DNA from: Octopus vulgaris | Lineage: Eukaryota | Direction of reading: 5' to 3' | DNA: 64,000 nucleotides | NCBI GenBank assembly: GCA_951406725.2 | Contig: OX597815.1 | Coordinates: 23,374,001 to 23,438,000 of the forward strand | Shown: piece after piece, positions 1 to 59,800 of the stretch | Layout: every line of letters begins with the position of its first letter | Position numbering within the stretch: the first letter of the stretch is position 1 | Position numbers: made by a program

Positions 1-3000
1 ATTGTCTTCCTCCAAGTGAAATGCTTTCAATATACACCTTTTCTATCTCCCCTGCTCCCTCCTTAATGTAACGGAGAGTAATTAACTGAGCTCTAGATCC
101 CTGGTTACTCTGAACTAAAGGGATCCAGCAAGATAAGAATAGAGGTTATATATGAATACTAGCAGCTAAGCCCGGTTTCGCCCGGTCTGTTTGGATGATG
201 TGGCTGTGATCGTTTTCGGTCAAGCATAATCTATAACAGCATTTGTCAACCTTATCATTTCGGGTCCCCTGTTTCGATTGGAGTCTCCAGCTATATGAAA
301 ATTTCTTGACCCCACCCCGTCAGAAAACAGCTCCTAAGCAACTAGTTGTTTTAATGGCAGAAGAAAGAGGGAAATTCCATTAGAAAAAGTTTTAATCGAT
401 TTTTTTCAGTATGGGGGTTAGGAAAAAAATACAAACTGCATTCCAATCTATGCACTTGTCTCCACATTTTCATGCAAATCCACCCAGCCGTTTAGCTGTG
501 AACCTCAAGACAAGAAAGAATAAGACGATCGCCCATATCCAATTTATATCATAGATTAAGGACTCTGTAGTTGAAAAGAAAATTGAACTAAATACTCTTT
601 ACTCTTTTACTCTTTTACTTGTTTCAGTCATTTGACTGTGACCATGCTGGAGCATCGCCTTTAGTCGAGCAAATCGACCCCAGGACTTATTCTTTGTAAG
701 CCCAGTACTTATTCTATCGGTCTCTTTTGCCGAACCGCTAAGTGACGGGGACGTAAACACACCAGCATCGGTTGCCAAGCAATGCTAGGGGGACAAACAC
801 ACACACATACACATATATACAACAAGCTTCTTTCAGTTTCCGTCTACCAAATCCACTCACAAGGCATTGGTCGGCCCGGGGCTATAGCAGAAGACACTTG
901 CCCAAGATGCCACGCAGTGGGACTGAACCCGGAACTATGTGGCTGGTTAGCAAGCTACTTACCACACAGCCACTCTTGCATAGATGCATAAAGATTATAT
1001 ATTTCATTCCTTCCATTTCACAAACAGAAAAGAAAAAGAATGGACTTCTGGCAAGATGATTTTTTTTCTCTTGCATTAAAAATGAATGACCAAAACTAAA
1101 ATCTTTTCATATGTTTTCTTATATTAATTTCCAATTGTTTTTTTTTTTTTTTTTTTTTTTTAGCATGGTCAGCCAGCATCTTTTCCTTCCTCACCAAATC
1201 ATTACAGTAGTAAAAACAATGATTTCATGACAGAATCAAAAGCAGGCCAAATAGAGGCAATGCCAGATATAAAGGAAATCAGGGTAAAAAGGAATATAGC
1301 AGAAGTATCACGAGCAACAGATATACCTGCAAATGCGCAACCATTTAATGCACAAGGAAATTTAATATCATCAACTGTATCTTATGCTTCAGCATTACTT
1401 GCCGCACTTGAGAATGGAACAAAACTCAATGATTCTGAACTAACAACTCCATTCAGTGCATCTCGGAATACAATGTTAATTAACACAACTGGAGAAGACG
1501 CTTCTTATGTAACAGCATCGACCAATGACACTGAGAATGTAACACAGTTTGACACACAAACACGATCAGTGAACACATCTGAAGAAACATCAACTCCATA
1601 TGTAACCACAACACCTTTAATAACTACGACTACTAGTAAGGAATTATTAGTTTTTCTCTTCATCTTTTTCTGATTGCTTGATAATTTGCGCAATATACCA
1701 CATGAAATATATCAGACATGTTCTCTGATATACTTACTCTCTAACTCTCTCTTTATCTATCTATCTTATCTATCTCTCTTTATATACATACTTACATTCG
1801 TACAACATACTATATATATATTATTGATCATGCATATGCAGTGTATGTGTTTTGTTTATGTGCCAAATTTGCTGCAAGATAGCATCTGGGAAAGCTCCCT
1901 ACACAATGTTGAGTGTCAGAGAACACCTGAATGGAATGTCACAGACCAGGTAAGACAACTTGCATCAGAATGAATCTGGGAGTGATAGATACTGATATTT
2001 CACCTTTATTGTGACTTATCAACACCACACACTCAGATCATCCCGAAACAAATAGCACAATTTATCAGTAACTGCTCTTTACAGCCGTACATCCCTATCC
2101 AGTATGCTTTCTGCTCTTCTTACCTAAGCCTTTTGCTCCCTGTGGAGCACAGATCATCAACGATTTTTCTCTCCATTGCTCTTGACTCTGGGTATCCTCT
2201 CCCAGTTCTTGAAAGTCGTTTTCAAATTGTCATCAATACTTTTTTCCAGGTAGGGATGTCAACCCTACACAAACCTGTTTTTATGACTGGGAAGAGGTGG
2301 TCTATATCCCTTACCTGTCCATCTTTTGACCTTTCTAGCATGAGAGACCCTATCAGGAGCTTGCACTCCACTGGCATACCTCTCAGGGTCATTGAGGCAC
2401 GCAAATCACCACATAGCAACAAGGACTGGATCTTATGGTGACTTCTGATACGATATTATTCTCAAGGTGAATAACCAGCTTATTTTAGAGTATAGATGTG
2501 AGGGACTTTGTATAATGTTGACCAGCAAATTATGGGACTCTAGTTCATTTGGCATTCCTGGTGTTTTTGTTTTAAGAATTAATGTTCACTCAGTAGACAT
2601 TTAGATGTTCATCTTGATTTCTCACGAGTTCAATAAATGCAACTGCTACAGATTCATTTCAGGGGATTTCGCCATGAATAATAATGATCATGATGACATT
2701 GGTACGTGTACAAATGAAAGATAAGATTAGGAATGAATATTATAGACAAATTAGATTAGTACTTAAAGGTGGTCCACTGTTTCAATCTCATCATTGCAGA
2801 ATTAGCACTTTGGAAATACTACAATTTTCATCACATTGACTTGGTATTTCCATGTCAGTAGGCTTTGATCTTGAGTCGCTAAAATGATGCCTTTGCTCTC
2901 TGCCTTTGGCCCTGAGCTCTGTAGCCACTTACATGTATGCTTCTGGTCAACATCAGCTTGTTTGCTATGGGCCACATATTTGCCATCTAGAGGTTTCTGC

Positions 3001-56898: not shown

Positions 56899-59800
56899 TC
56901 TTTTACTTGTGTCAGTCACACATGCACACACACACACACACACATGCACACACGTGCACATGCACACACACACACATACACACACACATGCACACACACA
57001 CACACACACTATCATCATCATCGCTTAATGTCTGCCTTCCATGCTGGCATGGGTGGGACGGTTTAACAGGAGCCAGCCAGACAGAAGCCTGCATCAGACT
57101 TCGGTAACAATTTTGGCAGGATTTTTACAGCTGGATGATCCTCCTATGACCAACCACTCAGCAAAGTAGACTTAGTGCTTTTTACATGGCACAAGCACAG
57201 GTGAGGTCAGTTTTGGCAAGGTTTTTACAGCTGGATGCCCTTCCAAACACCAACCGCTTTACAGTGTGGACTGGGTGCTTTTTAAGTGGCACTCAGATTA
57301 GGAAATGATTATATATTTATTTTGGTGTAAAGAAATTTTTCTTTTGTTTTAATTTCAGGACCAGTACCTTCTAATTAATACTTGTATTAGAAAAGCAATA
57401 ATGGATAAATTTAATCTGAAAGACACCCAAATCAACAAAGAGGAAGAAAATAAGAAAAATGAAGTTAGAGTGGATGTAGAAGAGGGAGGGGACACAGAAA
57501 ACTGCACAGAAACAGATGAAGATGATGCAGATGATGTTGAAGATAGTGCCAAAATTCTTACAAATAAAGTTGAAGAAAAAGAAGATGATACCAAAGAACC
57601 TATAGTAAAAGTTGAAGCAAATGTTGCAGCTGAAAACACCAATAAAGTTGAAAATGCAAAAACGGATGTGACTCAGGATGCAAAAGATGATGGAGAAAAT
57701 GTGGATGAAGCTACAGGTGATACAGGTGAAGATAAGGATGCAAATAGTAACATGTATACAAATGACTACCAGGAAGATGCTGACGAAACAGTACCCTTAA
57801 CACAAGTGTAAGATGAATTTTATTTGGAATTTGCCTTTTAGAAATATGCAAAAATTCTCTCTCTCATTCACACACACACACACCATCATCATCATCATCA
57901 TTATTATTATTATTGTCATTATCATTTACCAATTGATCTGCATTTTATTTCATCTTCTGACCGGGTCTTGACCAGAGACCTAAGGCATATATAAATTAGA
58001 TGTAGAGAAACTTCTGTCAACACAATTTTAAGGGTCTCATAGATTGTTGGTTTCCCAGGAATCTAGTCAAAAAATTTGTCACTACCTTTCTTGATCATTC
58101 CCAGTCCATTTTCTGTACCTTCCTAGTGTTTATCATACCTGCACATCTGCCACACACAAAGACCACTTTCTCTGTTAACCCTCTTCTGATACTGCTGCAC
58201 TTCTTATGTGCACTGGGTACACCTTATGGAGTTTCTACCAACACCTTTTCTACACATCAAGCAGGGCTGTCTCCTTGAAAGAGTTTGTAATTTGCCTATT
58301 TTCCTAATTACAAGGATGTTGATCTTTGCTAAATTAACTCTAAGGCCTTTGATTCCAGACCTTGCTTCCACACCTGAATTGTGTGTGTGTGTGCACACAT
58401 ACACACACATGCATATATATATATGCAGAGATAAATAGAGAGAGAGGCAAGCAGATGAATACACATCATCATTATTTTACACCTGTTTTCCATGTTAGTA
58501 TGGGTATGACAGTTCAACAGGATTTTATGGTTTAGAGAACCACATCTTACTACAATGGCTCATTTTTGGAATGATTTCTACAATTGGATGCCATTTCTCA
58601 CACCAACTGGTACAAACTTTACAGGGAGTACTGGGTGCTTTACACGACACCAGCACTGTTGGAATTGCCTTGCAACTTGCAAAGCAAAAGGGATCTTCCA
58701 AAATGGAAGGAGCAAATTTAATATGAAAGGAAAGATTAACAGCAGGGACATTGCTGAGTTTGGAGTAAGGGAAACAGAATAGGGAGGAGGGGTTAGTGTG
58801 AAAGAAAGATGGGATGATGTAGTAATGATAATGGGGTGGGAGTTTGAGTAGTTGGCCCTAGTGAATGGATGGGTCAGTCTCTTATGGTCCACAGCAGTTC
58901 TTGTTGGAGTTAGACATTCATTTACACATTGTTATTCACACATAATACTGACATGGCACATTCAGTGAAGCATACTCACCGTGCTTCTTTCAAGCCTTCA
59001 TTTGTCTTCTGCATTCAGGTCTTGTGCTACACTCTCACAAGGCACGAACATCATTATCATCATCATCATCACCATTTAATGTCTGTTTTCCATTCTGGTA
59101 TGGGTTGGATGGTTTGACAGGGGCTGGCTAAGCAGAAGACTTCATCAGGCTTCACTGCCTGTTTTGGCAGGGTTTTACATGGCATCAGCACCAGCAAGGC
59201 CTGTTTTGACAGGGTTTTTATGGCTGGATGCTCTTCCAAGCCTCATCCACCTTACAGAGTGGACTGAATGCCTTTTACATGGCATCAGTACCATAAAAGT
59301 CTATTTTGGCAGGGTTTTTATGGCTGGATGCCCTTCCAAACATCAACCACCTTACAGAATGGACTGAGTGCATTTTACATGGCATCAGCACCAGCAAGGC
59401 CTGTTTTGACAAGGTTTTTATGGCAGGATGCTCTTCCAAGCCTCATCCACCTTACAGAGTGGACTGAATGCTTTTTACATGGCATCAGTACCATAAAAGC
59501 CTGTTTTGGCAGGGTTTTTATGGCTGGATGCCCTTCCAAACACCAACCACCTTACAGAATGGACTGAGTGCATTTTACATGGCTCTTACAATCTCTCATG
59601 GTGATCTCATGTATTTTCATGTCAAATGCTCAGTTTCCTCTACAGGCCCAGCTTGGATCAACTATTGTCTCTCTATAAAGCTCAAGTATGTCCCACTTTG
59701 AATTAACAACCTCAGTACCACTCCCCTACTGCAATTTACTTTCTTTTACTCTCATCATCCCTGTAGTGTCCCATCTACCCCAAATCAAACACTTTACCCA

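What the first reader, a model, noticed from the sequence alone, without database searches (positions are those of the whole stretch)
1164..57811. Receptor tyrosine phosphatase with a non-canonical mucin-like + tandem EB/EGF-like ectodomain
Seen: the spliced product reads Ser/Thr-rich segment, four 6-Cys modules, TM helix, one complete PTP domain, acidic tail. Known: single-PTP-domain receptor phosphatases of the R3 subtype (PTPRB/J/O/H/Q, fly PTP10D/4E) have FN3 arrays next to the membrane. No FN3 or Ig exon is visible here between the Ser/Thr exon and the TM. Inference: a lineage-specific receptor made by shuffling phase 1-1 Cys modules onto an R3-like catalytic region, possibly an undescribed cephalopod recognition or adhesion receptor family. 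Upstream exons are outside the window.
Basis: partly seen in the sequence, partly recalled or inferred. Interest (0 to 1): 0.85.

Follow-up and report, generated by a model that had tools for sequence, protein, structure and literature searches.

The report
Octopus receptor phosphatase with EB modules
This is a real Octopus vulgaris gene for a cell-surface tyrosine phosphatase whose outer part is a sugar-coated stalk plus small cysteine-rich EB modules; public databases already list it under misleading automatic names, and it appears to be a mollusc-wide receptor type that has lost its usual fibronectin repeats.

Summary
The window is Octopus vulgaris. Seventeen GT-AG exons on the + strand (1164-61189) tile residues 19-861 of public protein CAI9717075.1 exactly. 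The order is: Ser/Thr-rich exon, five phase 1-1 EB-module exons (not four), TM exon, two juxtamembrane exons, seven PTP/tail exons, and a 16-nt last exon encoding (V)TSEL.

Pfam calls the Cys modules EB (PF01683) and finds one Y_phosphatase domain. The best single-domain PDB matches are R3 phosphatases (Ptp10D, PTPRJ, PTPRB, PTPRO).

The EB-plus-R3-like combination is not cephalopod-specific. Haliotis asinina has mucin + EB x5 + FN3 + TM + PTP. A bivalve-like unnamed record has mucin + one EB-like module + FN3 + PTP. All share the C-terminal T-x-L. FN3-less forms make one clade with 100/99 support. The most likely history is loss of the FN3 array followed by EB exon duplication, not new shuffling onto an R3 core.

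The gene carries automatic names (PTPRC, Ptp10D-like, uncharacterized). Seven completed literature searches found no description. It is a new variant of a known kind and of moderate interest.

The parts
1164..1635 (+). Ser/Thr-rich (mucin-like) ectodomain exon, phase 0->1; P0002 residues 19-175
   Evidence: 100% match to P0001/P0002. Boundaries and tiling. Composition. pLDDT about 24, i.e. disordered, in the model.
9660..9782 (+). EB module exon A, phase 1->1
   Evidence: Pfam EB 28.3 bits against a gathering score of 24.3.
17814..17936 (+). EB module exon B, phase 1->1. Near-copy of A with one codon changed (K->H).
   Evidence: Pfam EB 28.7 bits.
25982..26104 (+). EB module exon C, phase 1->1
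   Evidence: Pfam EB 27.0 bits.
31050..31172 (+). EB-like module exon D, phase 1->1
   Evidence: Same six-Cys spacing as the other modules. No Pfam hit when scanned alone. Confident fold in context..
33495..33623 (+). EB module exon E (membrane-proximal), phase 1->1
   Evidence: Pfam EB 22.5 bits alone, below the gathering score. AF2 model has pLDDT 83..
34537..35505 (+). Degenerate second copy of the Ser/Thr exon (pseudo-exon). 34537-34876 is 97.9% identical to 1169-1508. A repeat insertion occupies about 34877-35396. 35397-35505 is 93.6% identical to 1539-1647, with a 14-nt deletion.
   Evidence: An in-frame stop follows ...SYI. The copy is absent from all annotated proteins.
36415..36508 (+). 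Transmembrane exon, phase 1->2
   Evidence: Hydropathy 3.4; helix 347-375 in the model.
40677..40736 (+). Juxtamembrane exon 1, phase 2->2
42469..42529 (+). Juxtamembrane exon 2, phase 2->0
43704..43836 (+). PTP exon 1, with the KNRF pTyr-loop motif
45406..45482 (+). PTP exon 2 (DHSRV, DYINANY)
   Evidence: Pfam Y_phosphatase 18.3 bits.
48336..48470 (+). PTP exon 3
   Evidence: Pfam Y_phosphatase 64.7 bits.
50226..50351 (+). PTP exon 4
   Evidence: No Pfam hit when scanned alone; note that one search scanned 50226-50342, not the full exon.
54605..54747 (+). PTP exon 5. Carries the W-P-D loop, read as WPDFSATVD, and the start of the VHC P-loop.
   Evidence: Pfam 32.4 bits.
55512..55656 (+). PTP exon 6 (SAGVGRTG, MVQNQ)
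   Evidence: Pfam 42.2 bits.
57359..57807 (+). PTP exon 7 plus the acidic tail with one Y-T-N motif. The donor GT is at 57808. The in-frame TAA at 57809-57811 would end the protein if this intron were retained.
61174..61189 (+). Last coding exon: completes V, then TSEL, then stop TGA at 61187-61189.
   Evidence: C-terminal T-x-L is invariant in 10 of 10 family members.
8810..26186 (.). Tandem duplication with an 8151-bp period: two full units and a third partial unit. It carries EB exons A, B and C.
   Evidence: 8810-18004 vs 16961-26172 is 98.9% identical over 9224 columns, and 8810-9864 vs 25129-26186 is 96.9% identical.

Best explanation
The locus is one Octopus vulgaris gene for a type I receptor tyrosine phosphatase of a mollusc-wide, R3-related subfamily.

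The mature protein has these parts, from the outside in:
- a disordered, glycosylatable Ser/Thr-rich N-terminus;
- three to five small disulfide-bonded EB modules, one per symmetrical phase-1 exon, so modules can be duplicated or skipped without breaking the frame;
- one TM helix and a short juxtamembrane stretch;
- one catalytic PTP domain with all catalytic residues in place;
- a disordered acidic tail with a Y-x-N motif;
- a C-terminal T-S-E-L on its own mini-exon.

Inferred mechanism: the catalytic domain removes phosphate from phosphotyrosine on membrane-proximal substrates, as R3 phosphatases do. The tail tyrosine and the C-terminal T-x-L probably dock SH2 and PDZ partners. The fast-evolving ectodomain sets ligand or size-dependent access.

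Inferred history: the molluscan ancestor had mucin + EB + an FN3 array + TM + PTP. The lineage leading to octopods lost the FN3 array. EB exons were then duplicated, most recently by the 8.15-kb tandem duplication in this window. Argonauta appears to have lost the EB modules as well.
For: **Gene and splicing**
- Each of the 17 exons has AG/GT boundaries and compatible phases, and its translation tiles P0002 residues 19-861.
- The Ser/Thr exon alone retrieves 4 of 4 significant hits (of 774 candidates). All four carry EB + Y_phosphatase and all are Octopus.
- The unnamed records P0121 and P0280 encode EB modules, TM and PTP in one open frame on contigs of 2.3-3.6 kb. I infer these are spliced transcripts.

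**Domains**
- Pfam on P0002 gives EB 73.8 bits in 4 stretches and Y_phosphatase 243.6 bits in one stretch.
- AF2 on the 820-aa isoform gives pLDDT about 24 for residues 20-173, 75-88 for the EB region, a helix at 347-375, 60-88 for the PTP core and about 25 for the tail.

**Catalytic competence**
- HCSAGVGRTG, the W and D of W-x-D, the two Q-loop glutamines, N-R of KNR, DHSRV and DYINA are invariant in 10 of 10 family members.

**R3 affinity**
- See the PDB ranking.
- PTP-domain identity is 49-50% to FN3-bearing P0268/P0269 and 53-55% to P0121/P0276.

**History**
- Haliotis P0150 has mucin (51% S+T) + EB x5 (83.4 bits) + fn3 (58.5 bits) + PTP + QTEL.
- P0269 has mucin + one module with spacing 5-6-6-1-11 + FN3.
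- Tree: molluscan family 96/95, FN3-less clade 100/99.
- O. sinensis and O. bimaculoides have 4 modules; this window has 5.

**Fast ectodomain evolution**
- O. vulgaris vs O. bimaculoides identity is EB 53% and S/T 74%, against PTP 93%.
Against: - I saw no Octopus transcript. The Octopus proteins are computed gene models, and the O. vulgaris set also contains an evident over-merge with the upstream SENP8 gene (P0272).
- The tree holds no vertebrate or fly R3 sequence and no CD45, so R3 affinity rests on PDB bit scores. There, vertebrate R3 members (183-215 bits) overlap R4 D1 domains (185-192).
- The single EB-like module of P0269 is weak: Pfam 17.7 bits, below the gathering score, and 17.4 bits with my own HMM.
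- Oyster isoform P0268 shows no EB module.
- The basal relations of Haliotis, Mercenaria and the Ostrea group are unresolved. FN3 loss is the parsimonious reading, not a demonstrated one.
- The W-P-D loop lacks the usual G-x-P (it reads WPDFSATVD), and KNRY reads KNRF. Full activity is therefore inferred.
- The Y-x-N motif is absent from the Argonauta tail.
- The Argonauta model may simply have missed small EB exons.
Confidence: 0.75

Rival explanations
1. One reading: a cephalopod-specific receptor made de novo by shuffling phase 1-1 EB exons onto an R3-like catalytic region. On this view the EB modules of Haliotis and the bivalve-like proteins were acquired independently.
For: - EB exons are symmetrical phase 1-1 cassettes and have been duplicated recently.
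- The EB module of P0269 is only weakly detected.
- Oyster P0268 has none.
Against: - Haliotis P0150 has the same order at both ends: mucin then EB x5 at the N-terminus, and acidic Y-x-N tail then T-E-L at the C-terminus. Its PTP domain falls in the same 96/95 clade.
- Cys spacing is the same across the family.
- Independent acquisition in three classes at the same position is less parsimonious than one loss of FN3.
Confidence: 0.15
2. Gene-model artefact: a secreted mucin/EB gene and a separate TM-PTP gene have been merged by annotation pipelines and by the reader.
For: - The O. vulgaris annotation demonstrably over-merges: P0272 fuses SENP8 with this gene.
- O. sinensis isoform X3 (P0275) starts inside the EB region without the S/T exon.
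- I saw no Octopus transcript.
Against: - Phases are continuous through S/T(1) -> EB(1-1) x5 -> TM(1).
- The TM-PTP part has no signal peptide of its own.
- The same join is modelled in three Octopus species.
- P0121 and P0280 carry EB, TM and PTP in single open frames on short contigs. Haliotis models do the same.
Confidence: 0.05
3. A catalytically impaired pseudo-phosphatase or decoy. The variant W-P-D loop (no G-x-P hinge) and KNRF would make it a phosphotyrosine binder rather than an enzyme.
For: - The loop reads WPDFSATVD and the pTyr loop reads KNRF.
- The middle residue of W-x-D varies across the family: P, A, K, L.
Against: - The nucleophile Cys, the P-loop Arg, the loop Asp and both Q-loop Gln are invariant in 10 of 10 family members.
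- The PTP domain is 93% identical between O. vulgaris and O. bimaculoides.
- The full-length Pfam match is 243.6 bits over profile positions 1-232 of 234.
Confidence: 0.1
4. An octopus orthologue of CD45 (PTPRC), as the database name says.
For: - NCBI/ENA records name it 'receptor-type tyrosine-protein phosphatase C'.
- It has a mucin-like N-terminus followed by a Cys-rich part.
Against: - It has one PTP domain, not two, and no FN3.
- The CD45 chain 1ygr scores 268 bits only as the sum of two matched domains. Single-domain R3 chains score 183-233 bits.
- Other isoforms and relatives of the same gene family are auto-named Ptp10D, PTPRH-like or PTPRO-like. The names are therefore not evidence.
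Confidence: 0.02

Closest known systems
R3 subtype receptor PTPs (PTPRB/VE-PTP, PTPRJ/DEP-1, PTPRO, PTPRH/SAP-1; Drosophila Ptp10D/Ptp4E)
   Same: - Type I membrane protein with a single catalytic domain.
- Best single-domain PDB matches.
- An acidic C-terminal tail carrying a tyrosine. PMC3676743 (Introduction passages read) says R3 members are tyrosine-phosphorylated by Src-family kinases in the C-terminal region.
   Different: - R3 is defined by an ectodomain of several FN3-like domains (PMC3676743). The octopus protein has none and instead has a mucin-like segment plus EB modules.
- The W-P-D loop is WPDFSATVD and KNRY is KNRF.
Molluscan EB+FN3 R3-like receptors. Examples: Haliotis asinina XP_067674713.1 ('uncharacterized' / 'Ptp10D-like'), Ostrea edulis XP_056014637.1 ('PTPRH-like'), Mercenaria mercenaria XP_053397498.1 ('PTPRO-like'), and the unnamed record P0269.
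   Same: - The PTP domains fall in the same clade (96/95).
- The N-terminal order is mucin-like then EB in Haliotis and P0269.
- The loop is of the W-x-D-[FMY]-[SQ]-A type.
- The tail is acidic with Y-x-N, and the C-terminus is T-x-L.
   Different: They keep an FN3 array between the EB modules and the membrane. The octopus gene and the unnamed P0121/P0280 do not.
EB module proteins (Pfam PF01683)
   Same: Six-Cys modules of about 41 aa score above the Pfam gathering score. The AF2 model shows two beta-hairpins.
   Different: - Here the modules sit on a receptor phosphatase.
- A nematode interactome preprint (10.1101/2024.07.08.602367; passage read) treats EB modules as indistinguishable from EGF domains in structure predictions. 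'EB' versus 'EGF-like' is therefore a matter of sequence family.
- My own fold search was inconclusive.
CD45 (PTPRC)
   Same: The database name, and an N-terminal mucin-like region followed by a Cys-containing region.
   Different: CD45 has FN3 repeats and two PTP domains (recalled; the two matched domains are visible). This protein has one PTP domain and no FN3.

Membership tests
Classical protein tyrosine phosphatase (Pfam Y_phosphatase PF00102) | P-loop HC(X5)R with the nucleophile Cys | tested here: met
   VHC|SAGVGRTG is split across exons 54605-54747 and 55512-55656. It is invariant in 10 of 10 family members. Pfam scores 243.6 bits.
Classical protein tyrosine phosphatase (Pfam Y_phosphatase PF00102) | W-P-D loop with the general-acid Asp | tested here: met
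   WPD is present; W and D are invariant in 10 of 10. The usual G-x-P after it is replaced (WPDFSATVD).
Classical protein tyrosine phosphatase (Pfam Y_phosphatase PF00102) | Q loop and the KNRY phosphotyrosine-recognition loop (motif names recalled) | tested here: met
   MVQNQDQY has both Gln residues invariant. KNRY reads KNRF in octopods, P0121 and P0276/P0280.
Classical protein tyrosine phosphatase (Pfam Y_phosphatase PF00102) | Phosphatase activity | not testable with these tools
   Needs an enzyme assay.
R3 subtype of receptor PTPs | Single cytoplasmic catalytic domain | tested here: met
   One Y_phosphatase stretch in P0002; one domain by local HMM.
R3 subtype of receptor PTPs | Ectodomain made of several FN3-like domains (definition in PMC3676743) | tested here: not met
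   No fn3 hit in P0002, P0004, P0274 or P0275. No FN3 relic in the window by tblastn of P0268, P0269 and P0150.
R3 subtype of receptor PTPs | Catalytic domain groups with R3 members | tested here: inconclusive
   The five best distinct single-domain PDB proteins are R3, but their scores overlap R4 D1 domains. No R3 reference sequence was available for the tree.
R3 subtype of receptor PTPs | C-terminal tyrosine that is phosphorylated and binds SH2 proteins | not testable with these tools
   One Y-T-N motif in Octopus and several Y-E-N motifs in relatives; none in Argonauta. Phosphorylation cannot be tested here.
EB module (Pfam PF01683) | Score at or above the gathering score of 24.3 bits | tested here: met
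   As single exons, 3 of 5 pass: A 28.3, B 28.7, C 27.0. E scores 22.5 and D has no hit. Whole protein P0002 scores 73.8 bits in 4 stretches.
EB module (Pfam PF01683) | Six conserved Cys in a module of about 40 aa | tested here: met
   Six Cys with the same spacing in 5 of 5 window modules and in all modules of P0004, P0274, P0121 and P0276.
CD45 / PTPRC | Tandem D1-D2 phosphatase domains and FN3 repeats (recalled) | tested here: not met
   One PTP domain and no fn3.
Class I PDZ-binding C-terminus (S/T-x-hydrophobic; consensus recalled) | C-terminal S/T at position -2 and a hydrophobic last residue | tested here: met
   T-S-E-L. T at -2 and L at 0 are invariant in 10 of 10 family members. Binding to a PDZ protein was not tested.

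The most novel reading that the evidence does not exclude
Octopods, and the unnamed EB-only lineage, may have turned an R3-type phosphatase into a fast-diversifying surface receptor. Its ectodomain would be rebuilt by cassette-exon gain, loss and skipping: 0 modules in Argonauta, 3-5 in Octopus, 9 in P0280. The modules would be under diversifying selection (53% identity against 93% for the enzyme; 8 nonsynonymous and 0 synonymous codon changes between EB-A and EB-C). 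It would then act as a recognition receptor, for example in haemocyte or neuronal self/non-self or pathogen sensing, rather than as a housekeeping phosphatase.
Probability: 0.1. Interest if true: 0.7.

Novelty: new variant of a known kind. Interest (0 to 1): 0.35.

Why it matters
- The 'R3' catalytic core is not tied to FN3 ectodomains. Within one phylum the outer part runs from EB+FN3, through EB only, to mucin only, while the enzyme, the tail motifs and the C-terminal T-x-L stay fixed.
- This gives a natural series for asking what a receptor-phosphatase ectodomain is needed for.
- It corrects misleading automatic names: 'PTPRC', 'Ptp10D', 'PTPRH-like', 'PTPRO-like' and 'uncharacterized' are all applied to one family.
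- It gives a clean example of phase-1 cassette exons being duplicated in place.
- It does not open a long-standing question, and the gene is already in public annotation.

Tried and rejected
- **Six-frame Pfam scan of long stretches:** I scanned exon by exon instead.
- **Homologue search with the PTP region of P0002:** 7592 of 8000 scored candidates had E<=1e-20. The 120 listed were 4 Octopus, 1 Argonauta and 115 others, mostly tandem-domain PTPRE/PTPRA whose two domains add up. Only 4 of the 120 carry PF01683. The list therefore said little about single-domain relatives.
- **Search with the ectodomain half of P0121:** only 3 hits among 789 candidates (itself, P0276, P0004). No named non-octopod EB-only protein was found.
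- **Fold search of the EB-E model against the PDB:** 0 of 21 matches at E<=0.001. The top rows were small disulfide-rich peptides and a few EGF-containing chains, all with E>2. Inconclusive.
- **FN3 relics in the introns:** none found.
- **Rfam and tRNA scans of the window:** nothing.
- **Literature:** seven completed searches and one failed call found no description of an EB-bearing receptor PTP or of this octopus gene. I saw only listings, except for the two papers cited with passages.
- **CD45 orthology and pseudo-phosphatase readings:** considered and rejected as above.
- **Not done:**
  - The closed metagenome and viral collections were not used.
  - The one genome-contig scan was not spent, because that collection holds only bacteria and archaea.
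  - I did not run complex prediction, because I claim no specific partner.

Full report
**What is in the window**

The 64-kb window has no N, is 38% G+C and is rich in repeats. Motif and ORF scans on the + strand located PTP-type peptides, a TM segment, five 6-Cys peptides and a Ser/Thr-rich ORF. Each is flanked by AG...GT.

I searched the window's sequence exon by exon and never joined the exons. Where a full-length protein was needed I used public records by their ids.

**Identity**

The Ser/Thr exon alone (window 1179-1634) gave 4 significant hits among 774 candidates:
- Two Octopus vulgaris proteins at 100% identity: P0001, 779 aa, and P0002, 861 aa (CAI9717075.1).
- O. sinensis P0003 at 82%.
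- O. bimaculoides P0004 (LOC106876748) at 71%.

All four carry precomputed EB (PF01683) and Y_phosphatase (PF00102) domains. The window is therefore O. vulgaris, and the gene is already modelled, under the name 'receptor-type tyrosine-protein phosphatase C'.

Other isoforms and orthologues appear:
- O. vulgaris 820 aa (P0270, four modules).
- O. vulgaris 1050 aa (P0272), an evident merge with the upstream SENP8 gene (Peptidase_C48 hit; N-terminus seen).
- O. sinensis 815, 774 and 628 aa. The 628-aa form is auto-named 'tyrosine-protein phosphatase 10D isoform X3'.

**Exon structure**

Seventeen exons tile P0002 residues 19-861 with exact phase bookkeeping:

| Exon | Coordinates | Phase |
|---|---|---|
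| S/T | 1164-1635 | 0->1 |
| EB-A | 9660-9782 | 1->1 |
| EB-B | 17814-17936 | 1->1 |
| EB-C | 25982-26104 | 1->1 |
| EB-D | 31050-31172 | 1->1 |
| EB-E | 33495-33623 | 1->1 |
| TM | 36415-36508 | 1->2 |
| JM1 | 40677-40736 | 2->2 |
| JM2 | 42469-42529 | 2->0 |
| PTP1 | 43704-43836 | 0->1 |
| PTP2 | 45406-45482 | 1->0 |
| PTP3 | 48336-48470 | 0->0 |
| PTP4 | 50226-50351 | 0->0 |
| PTP5 | 54605-54747 | 0->2 |
| PTP6 | 55512-55656 | 2->0 |
| PTP7 + tail | 57359-57807 | 0->2 |
| Last | 61174-61189 | 2->end |

- The last exon completes Val, then encodes T-S-E-L and TGA.
- The signal-peptide exon (18 aa) is not in the window.

**Domains**

Pfam on single exons:
- EB: A 28.3, B 28.7, C 27.0 bits (gathering score 24.3). 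E scores 22.5. D gives no hit.
- Y_phosphatase: four of the seven PTP exons match (18.3, 64.7, 32.4, 42.2 bits).

On P0002, Pfam gives EB 73.8 bits in 4 stretches and Y_phosphatase 243.6 bits in one stretch. It finds no fn3 or Ig.

All five window modules share the spacing C-x4/5-C-x6-C-x4-6-C-x-C-x10-C.

AF2 results:
- Module E with the other four window modules as alignment: pLDDT 83, two beta-hairpins. Its PDB fold search was inconclusive, with 0 of 21 matches at E<=0.001.
- The 820-aa isoform with nine relatives:
  - a disordered S/T region (pLDDT about 24);
  - four confident modules (75-88);
  - a TM helix at 347-375;
  - a PTP core (60-88);
  - a disordered tail (about 25).

**Which kind of phosphatase**

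Against PDB sequences, 244 distinct sequences matched at E<=1e-10 and 60 were shown. Among single-domain chains the order was:

| Chain | Bits |
|---|---|
| Drosophila Ptp10D | 232.9 |
| Rat 3i36 | 214.5 |
| PTPRJ | 206.9 |
| PTPRB | 202.3 |
| PTPRO | 192.6 |
| PTPRE D1 | 192.1 |
| PTPRA D1 | 186.8 |
| PTPRH | 182.9 |
| PTPRQ | 182.3 |

Tandem chains, including CD45 at 268 bits, rank higher only because two domains add up. The catalytic domain is therefore R3-like by best hits. The overlap with R4 scores means this is not proof.

**Relatives**

The exhaustive search with P0002 found 17549 proteins at E<=0.001 and listed the best 150. Apart from P0004 and P0006, I scanned the 148 representatives P0121-P0268 with my own EB and PTP HMMs. 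EB-like modules appeared in 2 of the 148: P0121 and P0150.

- **P0121** (unnamed, 687 aa): 4 EB + TM + PTP.
- **P0280** (unnamed, 882 aa; in the cluster of P0276, which is related to P0121): signal peptide + 9 EB stretches (146 bits) + TM + PTP.
- **P0150** = Haliotis asinina XP_067674713.1, whose parts are:
  - a 51% S+T segment;
  - 5 EB stretches (83.4 bits);
  - fn3 (58.5 bits);
  - TM and one PTP;
  - Y-x-N motifs;
  - a ...QTEL C-terminus.
- **P0269** (unnamed, 1174 aa): mucin-like segment, one EB-like module (Pfam 17.7 bits, own HMM 17.4 bits, spacing 5-6-6-1-11), FN3 array, PTP with WPDFSAAVD...TTEL.
- **P0268** = Ostrea edulis XP_056014637.1 ('PTPRH-like'): FN3 + PTP with WPDFSASVD...LTEL.
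- **P0143** = Mercenaria 'PTPRO-like': ends ...NTEL.
- **P0006**, the Argonauta hians orthologue: 78% identical in the PTP domain. It has no Cys module, only an N-glycan-rich tandem repeat with 17 sequons.

**Tree**

I built an IQ-TREE (LG+C20) tree of 31 PTP domains. The rows were 10 family members plus D1/D2 of 10 tandem proteins and one Ciona piece. I left out isoforms and same-cluster duplicates (P0001-3, P0216, P0276, P0281) and all other representatives.
- The molluscan family is a clade (96/95).
- The FN3-less proteins (three Octopus, Argonauta, P0121, P0280) are a clade (100/99).
- Haliotis, Mercenaria and Ostrea+P0269 branch below it without resolution.
- No vertebrate or insect R3 reference was available as a stored protein, so the tree does not test R3 membership.

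**Reading**

The simplest history has four steps:
1. The molluscan ancestor had mucin + EB + FN3 + TM + R3-like PTP + acidic Y-x-N tail + T-x-L.
2. The FN3 array was lost once in the lineage of octopods and the unnamed EB-only forms.
3. EB cassette exons were then gained.
4. In Argonauta they were lost.

In this window the latest gain is visible. An 8151-bp tandem duplication at 98.9% identity carries exons A and B. O. sinensis and O. bimaculoides have four modules.

**How it likely works**

Shown:
- The catalytic Cys and Arg, the loop W and D, both Q-loop Gln, DHSRV and DYINA are invariant in 10 of 10 family members.
- The C-terminal T-x-L is also invariant.

Inferred:
- It is an active tyrosine phosphatase at the membrane.
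- The tail Tyr could dock SH2 proteins when phosphorylated. R3 members are phosphorylated there by Src-family kinases (PMC3676743, Introduction passages). The Grb2 preference for pY-x-N is recalled.
- The T-S-E-L end fits a class I PDZ ligand (consensus recalled).

The ectodomain's role is unknown. It evolves much faster than the enzyme: EB 53% and S/T 74% against PTP 93% identity between O. vulgaris and O. bimaculoides.

**Limits**

- I saw no Octopus transcript. The Octopus proteins are computed models.
- P0121 and P0280 are taken to be transcripts only because they carry uninterrupted 2-2.6 kb ORFs on short contigs, whereas this gene spans 60 kb.
- Seven completed literature searches found no description. 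Subscription journals and supplements were not searchable.
- A nematode preprint (passage read) notes that EB modules are not separable from EGF domains in structure predictions.

**Verdict**

This is a real gene with an unusual but explicable ectodomain. It is an FN3-less, EB-array variant of a mollusc-wide R3-like receptor phosphatase family, present in databases under misleading names and not found in print.

Noticed in passing
window 8810-26186: An 8151-bp tandem duplication (two full units and a partial third, 98.9% and 96.9% identical) gives O. vulgaris five EB exons. O. sinensis and O. bimaculoides proteins have four. This is either a very recent copy gain or an assembly artefact.
   Followed up: partly
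window 9660-9782 vs 25982-26104 (and flanks 8810-9864 vs 25129-26186): EB-A and EB-C differ at 12 of 123 exon positions but at only 21 of 937 flanking positions (Fisher p=1.5e-4). All 8 changed codons are nonsynonymous and lie in the 3' half. The two 3'-half types also exist in O. sinensis and O. bimaculoides. The flanks and 5' half may therefore have been homogenised by conversion while the 3' half stayed distinct.
   Followed up: partly
window 34537-35505: A second copy of the Ser/Thr exon lies between EB-E and the TM exon. It is broken by a repeat insertion of about 520 bp and a 14-nt deletion. Similarity to copy 1 stops within about 10 nt of the exon ends, and a repeat (33788-34539, also at 11280-12043 and 19430-20193) abuts its 5' end. 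How an exon-sized piece was copied is unexplained.
   Followed up: partly
window 37517-37804 (+), 37918-38232 (+), 9856-10110 (+), 34942-35376 (-), 60178-60924 (-): Intronic retroelement debris. There is a weak RVT_1 hit (19.7 bits) and two PHD-type zinc-finger ORFs (24.9 and 23.6 bits). Several related ORFs have no Pfam hit.
   Followed up: partly
window 601-980, 7118-7480 (-), 44127-44300, 55824-56218 (-): A short interspersed repeat of about 380 bp is present in four copies at 90-92% identity. ARAGORN finds no tRNA-like part and Rfam has no hit.
   Followed up: partly
window 61343-61905 and 56644-57107: Long CCA/CAC-type and CA/TG-type microsatellites give spurious open frames rich in His, Thr, Pro or Cys.
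   Followed up: no
public record P0272 (CAI9717073.1); upstream of window position 1: One O. vulgaris model fuses SENP8 (Peptidase_C48) to this phosphatase. SENP8 is therefore probably the upstream neighbour on the same strand, and the fusion is an annotation over-merge. No SENP8 exon is in the window.
   Followed up: partly
relatives P0006, P0121, P0276/P0280, P0150, P0143, P0268/P0269: The middle residue of the W-x-D loop varies within this one family: P in octopods and oyster, A in the unnamed EB-only forms, K in Haliotis, L in Mercenaria. W and D stay invariant. The unnamed EB-only forms carry four to five ENPYEN repeats in the tail.
   Followed up: no
public record P0006 (Argonauta hians GAB1604726.1): The ectodomain is a tandem array of a 9-residue NYTTDQMRL-type unit with 17 N-glycosylation sequons and no Cys module. 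This is either a real replacement of the EB modules or missed small exons in that gene model.
   Followed up: no
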